The position numbers were made by a program, and so were the translations under genes. This document shows, piece by piece, positions 5,774 through 10,501 of a stretch of 11,441 bases of DNA (its first letter is position 1; every line of letters starts with the position of its first letter). Source of the DNA: a virus (Duplodnaviria; Heunggongvirae; Uroviricota; Caudoviricetes); IMG/VR virus record IMGVR_UViG_3300023487_000022; one strand, 5' to 3'. The notes beneath the pieces are model-generated. The model had not been told where the DNA came from. It saw only the letters and a program-made list of their open reading frames with translations, and searched no databases.

Positions 5774-6505
5774 TCAGCGGGGACTTAACAAAAGCGGAGA
5801 CTCGCTCGACAAGCCGGCCAGTGAACCAACATCCCCCCAATTCTGGTGTGTCAGCGCCCCGATACTTACCACTCCAGGCAGCACTTCTTTGTGGTTGTGG
5901 TAGTGCCCGGACAACAATAAACGGAAGCCGATATCTTTCAGTTCCTGTGCGTCGATGCCGACATCGGGCATGGTGGGGATCGCTTTGTTGATTGAGGTAT
6001 GTACAACAACATCATGGTTGTCACCATCCAGCCCGGAACGCAGCGTTTTGAGATCGCTGATAAGTTCTGCGTAGTTATTACGCCAGCTAATCAGATGGAC
6101 GGTTACGTCGCCCATTTTGATGGAATGAGGACGTTTGCCGCAGACGATTTCCACACCGATTGAGCGCAGAGAGGCTGCTGCATTGGCGCTGTATACGGAA
6201 TCGTTGGTTTCGAGGTCGTGGTTGCCAGCCAGCATTACCACCTTGAGACCCAACTCTTTGATGATCCACTCGTAAGTTTCGGTCACGAAATGCAGAACGG
6301 AAGGTGATATAGCACCGCGAACATGGAAGGTATCACCAGCTACCAGCATGTTCTTACAGCCAGCAGCTTTCATCGCTTTGGCCGCCTCCTTCGTAGCGTC
6401 CAGTTGGATCTCCAGCCGAGAGTTAAGCCCGTCAGCGTTTGTTGTCGCAAAAGCATCCCAACGATGATAATGGGGATCTGATATTACCCCGTATGGCAAT
6501 GTCAT
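5774..6505 (-). CDS. Calcineurin-like metallophosphoesterase (243 aa)
   Basis: ATG at 6505 with AAGGA upstream. Ordered motifs ISDPHYH, GDTFHVRG, GNHD and GHYHNH match the metallophosphatase signature (D-x-H, GD-x-x-D/H-R-G, GNH[DE], GH-x-H). Confidence 0.75.
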   Translation of the reverse strand: MTLPYGVISDPHYHRWDAFATTNADGLNSRLEIQLDATKEAAKAMKAAGCKNMLVAGDTFHVRGAISPSVLHFVTETYEWIIKELGLKVVMLAGNHDLETNDSVYSANAAASLRSIGVEIVCGKRPHSIKMGDVTVHLISWRNNYAELISDLKTLRSGLDGDNHDVVVHTSINKAIPTMPDVGIDAQELKDIGFRLLLSGHYHNHKEVLPGVVSIGALTHQNWGDVGSLAGLSSESPLLLSPR

Positions 6506-6901: not shown

Positions 6902-7546
6902 TTAAAACGTCTCTGAGGGCTTCTGACGCGCTCTGCTAATGTCTATTACCCCAGCTTTTGGACGAGGGTCTACAAGATTCAACTCTTCAGCACTGTGATA
7001 CTCCGTGTCGAACTCCCGATCGACATGGCGAATGTAAATGGCTGTCAGAAGGCTGTTATCATTCAGAAAGTGTCCGTAAGATTTGCGAATTACTTCGCCA
7101 ACCTTCTCAATCTTCTCTCCGCCCATGCAGAGATGGTTAAATCGGCTGTGTTTCCGCAGCATTTCATCCACCGGGCCTGAGTAGACCTTATCAACTCTCC
7201 CGAACCGGATGATATTTCCGGTATCAGCTTCAACCAGACAAACGAGTTTGCCAGGTTCGACACGATCTCGCCAAGTGACACCAGAGCGCAGTGTGTTGAA
7301 GTAGGGAGCATCCAATCCGATGATCGGTTTACGAAATGCTAGTAGTGGCACGTAACGTATGCAGCTGTTTAGGTGGAAATGCGCACCGGCGTCGTGGAGT
7401 TTAAGCCGGGTTTCGTTAATCGGGCATTTCGAAGCAATGCCGCAAAGGTCGCAGAGCAACTTCTGTTTGTTCAGACTAGTGTTTGATTCAATGGTGTAGG
7501 AGCCATCTTCAAGACGGCGAACCCAGCGCGTGCGTTTAAGATCCAT
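6902..7546 (-). CDS. Hypothetical protein (214 aa) with a CDLCGIASKC Cys cluster
   Basis: ORF track, ATG at 7546, weak RBS. No family recognised. Confidence 0.6.
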   Translation of the reverse strand: MDLKRTRWVRRLEDGSYTIESNTSLNKQKLLCDLCGIASKCPINETRLKLHDAGAHFHLNSCIRYVPLLAFRKPIIGLDAPYFNTLRSGVTWRDRVEPGKLVCLVEADTGNIIRFGRVDKVYSGPVDEMLRKHSRFNHLCMGGEKIEKVGEVIRKSYGHFLNDNSLLTAIYIRHVDREFDTEYHSAEELNLVDPRPKAGVIDISRARQKPSETF

Positions 7547-7645
7547 AATTCTTGTTCAAATAATTTTGTCCGGGGCAACGATAACGGATAAGGCGCACCG
7601 GAGTTTGCAAATGCCTGTTTACTTATTCACTTTATTCACAGGCCC

Positions 7646-7703
7646 GATCCAATATTTAGATCCCCAGAGAGATCCTACAGAAGATCAAAAGAGATCCCCG
7701 ATC
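7646..7703. promoter_or_regulatory. GATC (Dam site) cluster, 6 sites in 58 bp; origin-like element
   Basis: GATC at 7646, 7659, 7671, 7683, 7693 and 7700, next to an AT-rich segment and just upstream of iteron cluster 1; this resembles the arrangement at P1-type origins. Confidence 0.5.
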
Positions 7704-7744
7704 GTCTCCAGCGCTTGCGGTTACTGGCTTGAGAAGGGGTTACT

Positions 7745-7846
7745 ATCCACTATAGGGAGCAAAATAACCACTGTAGAGAGCATAATAACCGCTATGAAGA
7801 GCAAAACAACCTCTCTGGAGAGTAGTCGGTATCCACTGTAGTGAGT
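7745..7846 (+). repeat. Iteron cluster 1: 5 direct repeats, about 21 bp spacing, core A(A/T)CCACT(A/G)TAG(A/T)GAG
   Basis: Copies at 7745-7760, 7766-7781, 7787-7802, 7808-7823 (degenerate) and 7831-7846. Confidence 0.8.
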
Positions 7847-8127
7847 AGGAGACAATGTTTTAACTGGATAACTCCGAGCCTGTTTTTCTGCGGCAGATGG
7901 CTGATATTCTTGGAAATATTGTAAATTTTGCGTTGCGGCGTGTTTATTTCGATCACACATTATCCCCAGAAGGGGAGTGATGCCTGATTTTGTAATTATC
8001 TGATTTTTATACACAGGCCCGATCCAGTAATTCAGATCCCTGTTAGAACCAAAGAGAACCACAAAGACCCAAAGAGATCCCCGGCCCTTGCAAACCGTTG
8101 TGCCACATGGCTTTAGAGGTTATCGAT

Positions 8128-8249
8128 ATCCACTATAGTGAGAAGAACAACCACTATAGAGAGTAAATCAACCACTATGGAGAGTAGAAAAACCGCTGTA
8201 GGCGGTAGGATAACCACTGTGATGGGTGCTACTATCCACTGTAATCAGT
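8128..8249 (+). repeat. Iteron cluster 2: 6 direct repeats at 21-22 bp spacing, immediately upstream of repA
   Basis: Copies at 8128-8143, 8149-8164, 8170-8185, 8191-8206, 8212-8227 and 8234-8249. Confidence 0.82.
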
Positions 8250-8288
8250 AAAGGCACCCAAGCCGTCGAATAAAAAGAGACATTTGGA

Positions 8289-9344
8289 ATGAGCGTAAAC
8301 GACAATAAAAACATTGCGATAAGCGAAGCATTTTCCGAAACAGACAAAAAGACCGGCGAAGTTGTTACGTTAGTTCCTAACACCAACAACACAGTTCAGC
8401 CTGTTGCTCTGATGCGTCTTGGTCTCTTCGTTCCGACGCTGAAATCGACATCCAGGGGTAGAAAGGGGCAAATGGTCTCTATGGACGCCTCCGCTGAACT
8501 CAAACAGCTGTCTCTGGCCAAAGCCGAAGGGTACGAGGATATAAGGATTGCTGGTCTTCGTCTTGATATGGATAACGATTTCAAAACATGGGTGGGCATC
8601 ATCCACGCGTTCGCCAAGCACAAGGTTGTTGGTGACACCGTCACGTTGCCGTTCGTCGAGTTCGTCAGACTTTGTGGCATACCAACAGCCAGATCGTCCG
8701 CGAAGTTACGTAAGCGCCTGGACAGCTCTCTAAGTCGTATCGCCACAAACACCATCTCATTCCGCAGCAAAGGCTCTGAAGAGTATTACGTTACGCACCT
8801 TGTGCAGACGGCAAAGTACAGTACCAAGAATGACACGGTCGAACTGAAGGCCGATCCTAAGATTTTCGAACTTTACCAGTTCGACAAAAAGGTGCTTTTG
8901 CAACTTCGGGCCATCAACGAACTCTCCAGAAAGGAATCCGCGCAGGCGCTCTACACCTTCATTGAAAGTTTGCCACCAGACCCGGCGCCAATCTCATTGG
9001 CTCGCTTACGCGCCAGACTTAACTTAACCAGCCGCACCATTACCCAGAATGCGACAGTCAGGAAGGCGATGGAGCAGCTGCGAGAGATCGGCTATCTCGA
9101 TTACACTGAAGTGAAACGCGGCAGCTCGGTCTACTTCGTCATCCACTATAGACGGCCGAAGTTACGTTCGGCACTGCCGCCATCTATGGCTACGCCTGAA
9201 GAGCCAGAAGATATCTTGCCAGGTGATGATCCGGAGGACATTATCGATGTTGCCCCTGAAGAAAAAGACGGGGAAATGGTCATGTTGAGCAAGGAAGAAC
9301 TGGCGATTCTCGAAGAGCTGCGCAAGGCAAAGGCTCGCAAATAG
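8289..9344 (+). CDS. repA: Iteron-binding replication initiator RepA, RepFIB/P1 RepA family (351 aa)
   Basis: Product contains [57 protein letters not shown] and [10 protein letters not shown], which I recognise as conserved in P1 RepA and RepFIB RepA. Flanked on both sides by iterons. Confidence 0.9.
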
Positions 9345-9347
9345 CCC

Positions 9348-9947
9348 AACCACTGTAGAGAGTAAAAAGGCTCACTATCTACTGTAGTGAGCCTTTTTGT
9401 TTATCGGAAATGCAATATCCACTGTAGTGAGTAAAAGAAACCGAAGAATAACCACTGTAGGCAGTGCGCACAAATCGCGAAGTAAATGTTAGTGGTTGCA
9501 AACATAGATAAAACAAGGGCTGAGAGGTTAGCGGTCACTGGGTATCTCTGTTAAGTCTACTCTCTACAGCGGTTATCGTCGCTCTCCTCATTGTTGACTA
9601 TCCACTGTGAAGAGCAGAATTGGCTGACTTGACCTCTATCCACTGTAGTGAGTGGATATCCGTTTAAAACAGCGAAGATTTACTCTCCATAGTGGATATC
9701 CGCTGGAGGGGGCATTCCATCACTCTCTATAGTGGTTGTTTGTAGTCAGTGAACGCCTGTTTACTCACTACAGTGTATAGCGACCCCGATAATCACCAAT
9801 TTACTCACTACAGTGGATAGTTGATATCGTGGCAGAGGGTTTGCTCACTACAGTGGTTGGGGTGCATACCTGAAGGGTGTTCTACTCGCTACAGTGGTTA
9901 TGAGCCGGATTCACACGCGGTGAGCTGGCTACTCACCGCAGTGGATA
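9348..9947. repeat. Downstream iteron array, about 14 copies in both orientations (incA-like)
   Basis: Direct copies at 9348-9363, 9378-9393, 9417-9432, 9450-9465, 9598-9615 and 9638-9653; inverted copies at 9559-9576, 9682-9701, 9721-9738, 9763-9780, 9803-9820, 9843-9860, 9884-9901 and 9930-9947. Confidence 0.8.
9369..9402 (+). terminator. repA rho-independent terminator: GGCTCACTA-TCTACTG-TAGTGAGCC then TTTTTGTTT
   Basis: 9 bp stem beginning 25 nt after the repA stop, followed by a T-run; the stem is built from iteron-like sequence. Confidence 0.6.
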
Positions 9948-9953
9948 GTGTTA

Positions 9954-10166
9954 TCAGTGGATTTTCTTCAGCAGACCCCAGAGTGTCCCGGCCTTCGTTG
10001 CGAGCTTACCTGTTTCCGGATCGTACATGTGCCATTCACGTCGCTGGTGGACAATATACCCATCTTCACGTTCCAGTCGTTCCAGTACGCCGGACTGCTT
10101 GAACCCTTTGGCACGCCAGTAGCCGCTTGTTTTTTCGATTTCCAGACCTGTCAGTGTAACCGCCAT
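9954..10166 (-). CDS. Hypothetical small protein (70 aa), translationally coupled
   Basis: ATG at 10166..10164 overlaps the TGA of the upstream gene (TGATG); the track start at 10169 is a TTG. Product MAVTLTGLEIEKTSGYWRAKGF... Confidence 0.62.
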   Translation of the reverse strand: MAVTLTGLEIEKTSGYWRAKGFKQSGVLERLEREDGYIVHQRREWHMYDPETGKLATKAGTLWGLLKKIH

Positions 10167-10501
10167 CAACTAATCTCCTTGCAGTCATCGAAAAGGTAGC
10201 TGTCGTTCTTCGCGTGAACGCCGTATACATCACCCGATTTGTTGTAAACGAATCTATCTTTACCTACGCCAGATAGTTCGCCGTTACGTTTAGTGAGAAA
10301 CGGGGAAGACAGGACGCGATCATCGCGTACCACATAAAACTGTTCGCCACGGTCCACAACCATCGCGCCGTAATTAGCTTTAACGACGTTGCGGATCAGG
10401 CCGTTTTTCGCTTCGACCACAAACATTTCGCACTCATAGACATGTGTGTCCGCAAAGACGGGGAGAGTGAGCAGCGCCAGTACCAGGGCTGTTTTCTTCA
10501 T
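10166..10501 (-). CDS. Hypothetical exported protein with Sec signal peptide (111 aa)
   Basis: MKKTALVLALLTLPVFA then DTHVYEC, consistent with an AXA cleavage site. ATG at 10501 overlaps the stop of the upstream small ORF (ATGA). Confidence 0.65.
   Translation of the reverse strand: MKKTALVLALLTLPVFADTHVYECEMFVVEAKNGLIRNVVKANYGAMVVDRGEQFYVVRDDRVLSSPFLTKRNGELSGVGKDRFVYNKSGDVYGVHAKNDSYLFDDCKEIS

What the first reader, a model, noticed from the sequence alone, without database searches (positions are those of the whole stretch)
9348..9947. Long downstream iteron array in mixed orientation, one iteron forming the repA terminator stem
About 14 iteron copies follow repA: the first block in direct orientation with irregular 30-40 bp spacing, then a block of about eight copies inverted relative to the origin iterons. 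The repA terminator hairpin (9369-9393) is itself made of iteron-like sequence, so RepA binding and transcription termination may be physically coupled. The array runs to within 7 bp of the stop of a convergent operon.
Basis: partly seen in the sequence, partly recalled or inferred. Interest (0 to 1): 0.45.

Follow-up and report, generated by a model that had tools for sequence, protein, structure and literature searches.

The report
Copy-control iteron array after repA
The 600 bp after repA hold a real, conserved array of 14 initiator-binding repeats, the counterpart of the copy-number-control arrays of phage P1 and IncFIB plasmids, here in an SSU5/pMT1-type phage-plasmid, so it is an ordinary kind of element with a few new details.

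Summary
A weight matrix built only from the 11 upstream origin iterons finds 14 copies in 9347-9947. Thirteen score 21-28 bits and one, inside the terminator hairpin, scores 12; the best shuffle reached 12.4. A consensus search gives 24 hits in the window against 0.23 expected.

The orientation order is + + + + - + + - - - - - - -, so one inverted copy (9557) sits inside the "direct" block. The array ends 6 bp before the stop of the convergent gene.

The window is an SSU5/pMT1/pHCM2-type phage-plasmid replicon. RepA is a Rep_3 initiator, 49% identical to P1 RepA and about 60% to RepFIB RepA.

P1 incA has the same layout (3 direct, then 6 inverted). RepFIB EFGHIJ also has both orientations.

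The array lacks DnaA boxes, GATC sites and an AT-rich stretch. Its iteron cores are far better conserved than its spacers. It is therefore most likely an incA/EFGHIJ-type negative control locus that works by RepA handcuffing and titration.

The repA terminator hairpin does contain an iteron. Related replicons build similar hairpins from convergent iteron pairs. Coupling of RepA binding to termination is untested.

New details are one 41-bp unit that varies from 1 to 5 copies among near-identical plasmids, a second iteron-derived hairpin at the far end, and a conserved non-iteron block.

The parts
8289..9344 (+). repA, the iteron-binding initiator (351 aa)
   Evidence: ORF. Pfam Rep3_N (E 2.4e-11) and Rep3_C. 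49% identical to P1 RepA and about 60-64% to RepFIB-type Rep proteins.
9347..9365 (+). downstream iteron 1, direct, starting 3 bp after the repA stop
   Evidence: PWM 28.1. Present at +3 in all 12 relatives.
9369..9393 (.). repA terminator hairpin, flanked by an A-run (9364-9368) and a T-run (9394-9402), so bidirectional in form
   Evidence: -22.4 kcal/mol, z -6.2 on the + strand and -19.2, z -5.5 on the - strand. All 9 pairs are kept in 7 distinct relatives, with one compensatory A-U to G-C change and one wobble.
9376..9394 (+). downstream iteron 2, embedded in the hairpin (loop plus 3' arm); degenerate in this window (TATCTACTG)
   Evidence: PWM 12.0 here and 14-19 in relatives, most of which have TATCCACTG.
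9416..9434 (+). downstream iteron 3, direct
   Evidence: PWM 27.8.
9449..9467 (+). downstream iteron 4, direct
   Evidence: PWM 21.0.
9486..9548 (.). conserved non-iteron block containing two 5'-half-iteron motifs (TTAGTGGTT and TTAGCGGTC, the reverse complement of ACCACTAA) about 39 bp apart
   Evidence: 80-92% identity to relatives, against 60-81% for spacers. No Rfam hit. Only a weak consensus fold.
9557..9575 (-). downstream iteron 5, inverted and intercalated in the direct block
   Evidence: PWM 27.7. Conserved position and orientation.
9599..9617 (+). downstream iteron 6, direct
   Evidence: PWM 25.5. Absent in the pLF82/Cyrano lineage.
9637..9655 (+). downstream iteron 7, direct; forms a convergent pair with iteron 8
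   Evidence: PWM 25.2. Inverted repeat I12. The pair folds at -25 kcal/mol, z -4.3.
9680..9698 (-). downstream iteron 8, the first of the contiguous inverted run
   Evidence: PWM 27.5.
9720..9738 (-). downstream iteron 9, inverted
   Evidence: PWM 25.0.
9761..9779 (-). downstream iteron 10, inverted; its unit is deleted in CP057431
   Evidence: PWM 21.3. Unit missing in L004.
9801..9819 (-). downstream iteron 11, inverted
   Evidence: PWM 27.8.
9841..9881 (-). iteron 12 (9841-9859) plus its spacer: the 41-bp unit that varies from 1 to 5 copies among near-identical plasmids
   Evidence: PWM 26.7. The unit is present once, twice, 3, 4 and 5 times in the window, L003, L002, L019 and L018. Length classes 661 to 865 bp.
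9882..9900 (-). downstream iteron 13, inverted
   Evidence: PWM 24.2.
9917..9939 (.). second iteron-derived hairpin (GCGGTGAG / CTCACCGC) at the 3' end of the convergent gene, with no U-tract
   Evidence: -21.2 kcal/mol, z -2.7 on minus-strand RNA. The stem is unchanged in 7 of the 8 aligned sequences (one base differs in L006), while the loop varies.
9929..9947 (-). downstream iteron 14, inverted, ending 6 bp before the convergent stop codon
   Evidence: PWM 21.2. The 6-bp gap is the same in all 13 loci.
9954..10169 (-). convergent 71-aa gene, last gene of a minus-strand cluster of small conserved phage genes
   Evidence: ORF. phrog_804, E 5e-34, unknown function. Annotated 'putative Cre-associated protein' in SSU5 and 'P1 Cra protein' in Cyrano.
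8006..8251 (+). proximal origin-like module: DnaA box 8007, 3 GATC sites and 6 iterons at 21-bp spacing. This is one likely partner of the downstream array.
   Evidence: A promoter-like site at 8112-8139 overlaps the first iteron.
7631..7848 (+). distal origin-like module: DnaA boxes 7623 and 7632, 6 GATC sites and 5 iterons at 21-bp spacing
   Evidence: Present in every relative that has upstream flank.

Best explanation
The region 9347-9947 is the negative copy-number-control and incompatibility locus of a RepFIB/P1-type iteron replicon carried by an SSU5/pMT1/pHCM2-family phage-plasmid. It is the counterpart of P1 incA and RepFIB EFGHIJ.

RepA made from the adjacent gene binds these 14 sites. 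RepA bound here pairs ('handcuffs') with RepA bound at the upstream origin iterons, in cis by looping and in trans between plasmid copies. This blocks origin firing as copy number rises. The sites also soak up RepA.

The hairpin at 9369-9393 is the intrinsic terminator of repA. It is bidirectional in form, so it should also stop antisense transcripts coming from the convergent operon. It most likely descends from a convergent iteron pair like those seen right after rep in related replicons.

Shown here: sequence identity of the repeats to the origin iterons, their conservation, the shared layout with P1 and RepFIB, the absence of origin features, and the hairpin. Inferred, not shown: RepA binding, handcuffing, the effect on copy number, and termination.
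For: Repeats: the copies match a PWM built only from the upstream iterons, at 21-28 bits against a shuffle maximum of 12.4. A consensus search gives 24 hits against 0.23 expected.

Initiator: RepA carries Rep3_N and Rep3_C. It is 49% identical to P1 RepA and about 60-64% identical to RepFIB-type Rep proteins.

Shared layout: P1 incA, as annotated in AF234172, has 3 direct then 6 inverted iterons starting at the repA stop. Classical RepFIB has a direct iteron at +2 followed by mostly inverted copies. Pantoea pAR5_B has 1 direct and 12 inverted copies.

Not an origin: the array has no GATC, no DnaA box within one mismatch except a poor match at 9428, and no AT-rich stretch. Both upstream modules have perfect DnaA boxes and GATC clusters.

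Selection: position and orientation are conserved in 12 relatives from Escherichia, Salmonella, Enterobacter and Yersinia. Iteron cores are 86-95% identical against 60-81% for spacers, Fisher p = 2e-5 to 1e-10.

Experimental precedent: in the FIB replicon the downstream EFGHIJ block alone displaces a resident FIB plasmid, while the upstream block does not. The authors' model is handcuffing (PMC11983097, read).

Terminator.
Against: There is no direct evidence of RepA binding or of any copy-number effect in this family. The literature searches for this family turned up no paper describing its iterons, and the one directly relevant preprint could not be opened.

The array is larger (14 sites) than in the characterised systems (9 in P1, 6 in RepFIB), and it sits opposite two origin-like modules, so which one it pairs with is unknown.

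The distal run is not helically phased at 10.5 bp per turn.

The simple terminator scan did not list the 9369-9393 hairpin. This is probably because its A-run and T-run pair and extend the stem, which is my inference.

In the pLF82/Cyrano lineage the U-tract is degenerate (TTACTTATAT).
Confidence: 0.8

Rival explanations
1. The array mainly acts as a transcriptional insulator between two convergent units. RepA-bound iterons serve as roadblocks, and iteron-derived hairpins at both ends stop or stabilise transcripts. Copy control would be secondary.
For: The hairpin at 9369-9393 is bidirectional in form. A second stable hairpin lies 14 nt past the convergent stop and its stem is almost invariant in relatives. 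No canonical minus-strand terminator with a U-tract lies between 9953 and 9394, so transcripts of the convergent operon probably enter the array.
Against: Two hairpins would be enough for insulation. That does not explain 14 conserved initiator sites, or the same layout in P1, where the neighbouring gene (parA) is co-directional. In the FIB replicon the downstream block acts in trans on replication (PMC11983097).
Confidence: 0.07
2. The downstream array is a second replication origin or part of a bipartite origin.
For: It holds more iterons than either upstream module. Some iteron plasmids have several origins; R6K is the example I recall, from general knowledge.
Against: It has no GATC sites, no good DnaA box and no AT-rich unwinding stretch. 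Spacing is 40-41 bp rather than the 21-bp tandem spacing of the origin sets, and orientations are mixed. The homologous blocks in P1 and FIB are control loci, not origins.
Confidence: 0.03
3. The regular 40-41-bp distal run is a partition centromere or plasmid-pairing site, comparable to the 43-bp repeats of F sopC.
For: The period of about 41 bp and the variable unit number resemble centromere repeat arrays. The sopC comparison is from memory.
Against: The repeated motif is the Rep iteron itself. Spacers are unrelated, and TRF does not call an array. No par genes flank it.
Confidence: 0.03
4. Most downstream copies are neutral leftovers of duplication with no current function.
For: One 41-bp unit expands and contracts freely among near-identical plasmids.
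Against: Iteron cores are conserved much more strongly than spacers across lineages that are 60-80% identical in the spacers. Position and orientation are also fixed.
Confidence: 0.03

Closest known systems
P1 incA (nine RepA iterons downstream of repA in the phage P1 plasmid replicon)
   Same: Both lie immediately after a homologous repA (49% identity). In both, the first iteron sits at the stop codon. Both have a direct block next to repA and an inverted block further out (+++------). Spacing is 30-41 bp, against 21 bp in the origin set. Both belong to a phage-plasmid.
   Different: The window has 14 sites, not 9. The iteron sequence is unrelated (TAWCCACTRTAGWGAGYAA against GATGTGTGCTGGAGGGAAA). 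One inverted copy is intercalated in the direct block. P1 shows no significant hairpin after repA (z +0.75). P1 has one origin module, where this window has two. In P1 the downstream neighbour is co-directional parA, not a convergent operon.
RepFIB downstream iterons EFGHIJ (P307, F and pO157 FIB replicons)
   Same: This is the closest Rep protein, at about 60-64% identity. The iteron shares the 3' half CTGTAGTGAGTAA. A direct copy lies at the stop codon, followed by mostly inverted copies. An iteron-built hairpin lies right after rep, formed by the E/F pair (-29.1 kcal/mol, z -5.9). PlasmidFinder-style typing calls these phage-plasmids IncFIB. EFGHIJ is shown experimentally to be the controlling, incompatibility-exerting block (PMC11983097).
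   Different: RepFIB has 6 sites over about 260 bp, against 14 over 600 bp here. The 5' half of the iteron differs (TATAAG against TAWCCA). The RepFIB hairpin uses two full convergent iterons, while here it uses one iteron plus an inverted copy of its 3' half. A tyrosine recombinase gene follows in RepFIB, not a phage gene cluster.
Pantoea agglomerans pAR5_B replicon (uncharacterised plasmid; Rep 70% identical)
   Same: The iteron consensus is the same. A convergent iteron pair forms a very stable hairpin after rep (-45.8 kcal/mol). A long, almost entirely inverted downstream array follows, with 12 inverted copies.
   Different: The copies are spread irregularly over 1.1 kb. It is a 173-kb plasmid, not a phage-plasmid. 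Nothing about it is experimentally known.
Mini-F incC (five RepE iterons downstream of repE)
   Same: It has the same logic: a control set of iterons downstream of a Rep_3 initiator gene that handcuffs with the origin set (cited in PMC11983097 as Uga et al. 1999).
   Different: It is a different Rep subfamily with a different iteron, and has 5 sites. I did not examine its sequence here.

Membership tests
incA / EFGHIJ-type control iteron array of P1/RepFIB replicons | The repeats share the consensus of the origin iterons of the same replicon | tested here: met
   A PWM from upstream copies only scores 13 downstream copies at 21-28 bits, against a shuffle maximum of 12.4. A consensus search gives 24 hits against 0.23 expected.
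incA / EFGHIJ-type control iteron array of P1/RepFIB replicons | Lies directly downstream of the cognate initiator gene, which is homologous to P1 RepA and RepFIB RepA | tested here: met
   The first iteron starts 3 bp after the stop. RepA carries Rep3_N and Rep3_C, is 49% identical to P1 RepA and about 60-64% to FIB Rep.
incA / EFGHIJ-type control iteron array of P1/RepFIB replicons | Lacks origin elements (DnaA boxes, Dam-site cluster, AT-rich stretch), which are found with the other iteron set | tested here: met
   There are 0 GATC sites and no good DnaA box in 9348-9947. Perfect DnaA boxes lie at 7632 and 8007, with 6 and 3 GATC sites upstream.
incA / EFGHIJ-type control iteron array of P1/RepFIB replicons | Wider and less regular spacing than the 21-bp origin set, and both orientations present (direct next to rep, inverted further out) | tested here: met
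   The window order is ++++-++------- with spacing of 29-47 bp plus one 108-bp gap. P1 is +++------ with spacing of 30-41 bp. RepFIB is +,-,(+),-,-,-.
incA / EFGHIJ-type control iteron array of P1/RepFIB replicons | Bound by the initiator protein | not testable with these tools
   Needs a footprint, EMSA or ChIP with RepA.
incA / EFGHIJ-type control iteron array of P1/RepFIB replicons | Dispensable for replication; deletion raises copy number; exerts incompatibility when cloned in trans | not testable with these tools
   Shown for FIB EFGHIJ in PMC11983097. Not known for this family.
Intrinsic (Rho-independent) terminator | A GC-rich stem-loop followed at once by a U-tract, located just after a stop codon | tested here: met
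   The 9-bp stem starts with GGC/GCC and is followed by TTTTTGTTT, 25 nt after the repA stop. It folds at -22.4 kcal/mol, z -6.2. The simple scan did not list it.
Intrinsic (Rho-independent) terminator | Structure maintained in relatives | tested here: met
   100% of cells are paired in 7 distinct sequences, with 1 compensatory pair and 1 wobble. Statistical support is weak, since 75 of 500 shuffles do as well. The U-tract is degenerate in the pLF82/Cyrano lineage.
Intrinsic (Rho-independent) terminator | Terminates transcription | not testable with these tools
   Needs Term-seq, 3'-RACE or a reporter read-through assay.
Replication origin (iteron type) | Iterons adjacent to DnaA box(es) and an AT-rich or Dam-methylated unwinding region | tested here: not met
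Partition centromere (sopC / parS type) | Repeats bound by a ParB-type protein and adjacent to par genes | tested here: not met
   The repeated motif is the Rep iteron. No par genes are in the window. Binding itself is not testable.

The most novel reading that the evidence does not exclude
The distal inverted block may be a fast-evolving copy-number dial. Gain or loss of a single 41-bp iteron unit would reset how strongly RepA handcuffs the origin, and so reset copy number, incompatibility and the dosage of cargo genes in SSU5-type phage-plasmids. This unit ranges from 1 to 5 copies among plasmids at least 98.7% identical in this region.

In addition, the convergent phage operon has no U-tract terminator and probably transcribes into the array. 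Its activity could strip RepA from the control sites and raise copy number on demand. This would resemble rctA transcription relieving the inhibitory 39-mer on Vibrio cholerae chromosome II (PMC6090056).
Probability: 0.2. Interest if true: 0.5.

Novelty: new member of a known kind. Interest (0 to 1): 0.25.

Why it matters
SSU5/pMT1/pHCM2-type phage-plasmids are common in Escherichia, Salmonella, Enterobacter and Yersinia. This replicon matched 340 records in the plasmid collection. Some of them carry resistance genes.

Knowing which DNA segment sets their copy number and incompatibility gives a direct handle for curing cassettes. The downstream iterons alone work for FIB replicons (PMC11983097). 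It also helps to read copy-number-driven phenotypes.

The natural variation in unit number offers a ready-made allelic series for testing how iteron dosage sets copy number. Conceptually, nothing here departs from the established incA/handcuffing model.

Tried and rejected
- **Rfam.** A permissive scan of 7500-10200 gave only a sub-threshold Thr_leader hit (24 bits against a gathering score of 55) lying on the terminator hairpin. I treat it as a chance or terminator-shape match.
- **RNA structure for the conserved block 9486-9548.** The consensus fold is weak (-9.8 and -2.1 kcal/mol) with one covarying pair. It is not convincing.
- **A 22-codon ORF (9486-9554) over that block.** The stop position is not conserved, the frame runs on into iterons in most relatives, and substitutions are not biased towards synonymous sites. 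Rejected as a gene.
- **Helical phasing of the downstream copies.** Not supported at 10.4-10.6 bp per turn; the 40-41-bp units drift in phase.
- **Tandem Repeats Finder.** It does not call the distal run, because the spacers are unrelated in this window.
- **Host-factor sites.** No IHF or DnaA consensus sites worth noting lie in the array.
- **Similarity of the conserved block to P1, RepFIB or Pantoea loci.** None found.
- **Literature.** The original pMT1 papers and Spiers et al. 1993 are not held. A 2026 preprint on heteroresistance driven by phage-plasmid copy number mentions RepA 41 times and 'iteron' not at all. It was listed by the search but could not be opened. I therefore cannot say whether this array has already been described for pMT1 or pHCM2.

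Full report
**What the window is.** The stretch 7550-10000 is 100% identical to E. coli plasmid p1585m1_B and 99-100% identical to many non-mobilizable E. coli plasmids of about 95-190 kb typed IncFIB. Matches of about 80-90% occur in Salmonella, Enterobacter, Citrobacter and Yersinia pestis (pMT1), 340 records in all. It is 89% identical to Salmonella phage SSU5 and 79% to Escherichia phage Cyrano. The window is therefore the plasmid-maintenance replicon of an SSU5/pMT1/pHCM2-family phage-plasmid. It is not identical to p1585m1_B outside this stretch, because that record carries an extra IS3-family insertion.

The ORF 8289-9344 encodes a 351-aa RepA with Pfam Rep3_N (WH1) and Rep3_C (WH2). 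It is 49% identical to P1 RepA and about 60-64% identical to the Rep protein of classical IncFIB plasmids.

**Checking the observation.** I built a position weight matrix from only the 11 upstream repeats that lie at 21-bp spacing (7744-7848 and 8127-8251) and scanned both strands of the whole window.
- Thirteen sites in 9347-9947 score 21-28 bits, the same range as the training copies.
- One more site, 9376-9394, scores 12.0.
- The best score in 20 shuffles averaged 8.3, with a maximum of 12.4.
- An independent consensus search (AWCCACTRTAGWGAGYA, up to 3 mismatches) gives 24 hits in the window against 0.23 expected. No shuffle out of 200 reaches 24, and all 14 downstream copies are among the hits.

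The orientation map is + 9347, + 9376, + 9416, + 9449, - 9557, + 9599, + 9637, - 9680, - 9720, - 9761, - 9801, - 9841, - 9882, - 9929. However, one inverted copy is intercalated among the direct ones, and the contiguous inverted run has seven copies, spaced 40, 41, 40, 40, 41 and 47 bp. The last copy ends at 9947. The stop codon of the convergent ORF (9954-10169, minus strand) occupies 9954-9956, so the gap is 6 bp.

**The terminator.** The sequence 9364-9402 reads AAAAA-GGCTCACTA-TCTACTG-TAGTGAGCC-TTTTTGTTT. As RNA it folds at -22.4 kcal/mol (z = -6.2). The complementary strand folds at -19.2 kcal/mol (z = -5.5) and is also followed by a U-run, so the element is bidirectional in form.

The iteron-like sequence TATCTACTGTAGTGAGCCT (9376-9394) supplies the loop and the entire 3' arm. 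The 5' arm is an inverted copy of the 3' half of the iteron.

Across seven distinct relatives all nine stem pairs are kept. There is one compensatory A-U to G-C change (a Salmonella plasmid, L013) and one U-A to U-G change (pMT1). With so little variation the statistical support is weak.

In this window the embedded iteron has T where all eleven origin iterons, and all twelve relatives at this site, have C. Relatives score 14-19 here. The simple terminator scan did not list this hairpin. I attribute that to the A-run pairing with the T-run, which is an inference.

**Conservation.** I mapped the iterons in twelve related loci: SSU5, Cyrano, pMT1, pHCM2, a pLF82-like plasmid, Enterobacter and Salmonella plasmids, and close E. 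coli relatives.
- The part next to repA (++++-++ followed by the first inverted copy) keeps its positions and orientations.
- The last copy always ends 6 bp before the convergent stop.
- Total site number ranges from 12 to 17 through clean 40/41-bp unit gains and losses.
- In a MAFFT alignment of eight distinct sequences, the 16-nt iteron cores are 86-95% identical to the window. Spacers are 60-81% identical. Fisher p is 2e-5 for pMT1, 2e-7 for the pLF82-like plasmid and 1e-10 for the most distant Salmonella plasmid.

The repeats are under purifying selection as repeats.

**Comparison with known systems.**
- *P1.* In the fully annotated P1 record, incA consists of nine RepA iterons starting at the last base of repA. 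Reading their sequences shows three in the origin orientation followed by six inverted, spaced 30-41 bp.
- *Classical IncFIB.* The iteron is TATAAGCTGTAGTSAGTAA, which shares the 3' half with the window's iteron. A direct copy at +2 after the stop is followed by mostly inverted copies. This corresponds to EFGHIJ.
- *Pantoea pAR5_B.* Its Rep is 70% identical and it uses the same iteron as the window. One direct and twelve inverted copies are spread over 1.1 kb downstream.

Mixed orientation, with direct copies next to rep and inverted copies further out, is therefore a trait of the whole family.

The iteron-built hairpin after rep also recurs. The E/F pair of RepFIB folds at -29.1 kcal/mol (z -5.9) and the Pantoea pair at -45.8 kcal/mol (z -7.6), while P1 has nothing significant. 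The window's terminator looks like a trimmed version of such a convergent pair.

**What the array is not.** It contains no GATC site, no acceptable DnaA box and no AT-rich stretch. Each of the two upstream modules has a perfect DnaA box (7632, 8007) and a GATC cluster, with six and three sites. No par genes are nearby, and the flanking minus-strand genes are small conserved phage proteins of unknown function. TRF does not detect the distal run, because only the iterons repeat and not the spacers.

**Mechanism.** The best-supported reading is that this is the incA/EFGHIJ-type control locus. RepA bound here pairs with RepA bound at the origin iterons, in cis and in trans, and also titrates RepA, which limits initiation as copy number rises.

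The experimental basis comes from relatives. For the FIB replicon, the downstream EFGHIJ block cloned alone displaces a resident FIB plasmid, while the upstream block does not. The authors interpret this as handcuffing between downstream and upstream iterons (PMC11983097). The P1 annotation assigns incA the same role.

For this family, RepA binding, handcuffing and the copy-number effect are all inferences. It is also weakened in this particular window by the C-to-T change in the embedded site.

**Things not in the original finding.**
(a) *A variable unit.* Among the 50 closest plasmid records (at least 98.7% identical in this region), the region 9300-10000 comes in length classes of about 661 bp (14 records), 701 (22), 742 (6), 783 (5), 824 (2) and 865 (1). 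In the five loci I read, the expansions are all the same 41-bp unit, iteron 9841-9859 plus its spacer, present 1 to 5 times. One contraction, in CP057431, removes the 9761 unit.
(b) *A second hairpin.* It lies at 9917-9939 (GCGGTGAG / CTCACCGC), and its 3' arm lies inside the last iteron. It folds at -21.2 kcal/mol on the minus-strand RNA, 14 nt past the convergent stop. Its stem is almost invariant in relatives and it has no U-tract. Both ends of the array are thus capped by a hairpin made of an iteron plus an inverted copy of its 3' half.
(c) *A conserved block.* The 108-bp gap between copies 9449 and 9557 holds a block (9486-9548) that is 80-92% conserved. It contains two 5'-half-iteron motifs in inverted orientation, about 39 bp apart. 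Rfam, consensus folding and a mini-ORF reading gave no convincing alternative explanation.
(d) *No clear terminator for the convergent operon.* No canonical minus-strand terminator lies between 9953 and the bidirectional hairpin, so the convergent operon probably transcribes into the array. On Vibrio cholerae chromosome II, transcription across an inhibitory initiator site relieves inhibition (PMC6090056). That is a precedent for, not evidence of, a similar effect here.

**Verdict.** The element is a larger member of a well-known class, the downstream control iterons of P1/RepFIB-type replicons. I could not open the original pMT1 and pHCM2 papers, so I cannot say whether it has been described there. 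Interest is modest. The unit-number polymorphism and the paired iteron-derived hairpins are the only parts that might repay an experiment.

Noticed in passing
window 7631-7848 and 8006-8251: There are two origin-like modules upstream of repA. Each starts with TTTATWCACAGGCCCGATCC, which contains a DnaA box, followed by GATC-bearing short repeats and then 5 or 6 iterons at 21-bp spacing. The distal module has 6 GATC sites. The proximal one has only 3, the others having decayed to GAACC or GACCC (TRF reports a 10-bp repeat AGAACCAAAG at 8045-8077). Both modules are present in every relative that has upstream flank. Which one is the working origin and which is only the repA operator is unknown.
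   Followed up: partly
window 9841-9881 (and L002, L003, L018, L019): A single 41-bp iteron-plus-spacer unit is present 1 to 5 times among plasmids at least 98.7% identical in this region. 28 of the 50 closest records differ from the window in array length. The two loci I read with 4 and 5 copies of the unit (L019, L018) are co-integrates that also carry an IncHI1B replicon.
   Followed up: partly
window 9917-9939: A second stable hairpin is built from the last iteron plus an inverted copy of its 3' half, 14 nt past the stop of the convergent gene. It has no U-tract. Its stem is unchanged in 7 of the 8 aligned sequences while the loop varies.
   Followed up: partly
window 9486-9548: A non-iteron block in the largest spacer is more conserved than the other spacers (80-92% against 60-81%). 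It contains two half-iteron motifs (reverse complement of ACCACTAA) and the invariant strings CAAGGGCTG and GGTCACTGGGTA. Its function is unexplained.
   Followed up: partly
window 9140-9158 (inside repA): An iteron-like half-match, CATCCACTATAGACGGCCG (PWM 16), lies in the 3' part of repA at the same position in all 13 loci examined (scores 14-17). It could be a real RepA site or simply a by-product of the conserved coding sequence.
   Followed up: no
window 9380: The hairpin-embedded iteron has T where all 12 relatives examined, and all 11 origin iterons, have C. This is a change private to this lineage that should weaken RepA binding without affecting the RNA stem, since it lies in the loop.
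   Followed up: partly
window about 6025-6029, against L001 6168-7475: The otherwise near-identical plasmid p1585m1_B carries an IS3-family element inserted here that the window lacks. The two alignment blocks overlap by 5 bp in the window, which would fit a target-site duplication.
   Followed up: no
window 9637-9698: Iterons 7 (+) and 8 (-) form a convergent pair with a conserved spacer (GGATATCCGCTGAAAACAG...). It folds at -25 kcal/mol (z -4.3) on the plus strand and includes extra TATCCGCTG half-sites at about 9654 and 9697.
   Followed up: no
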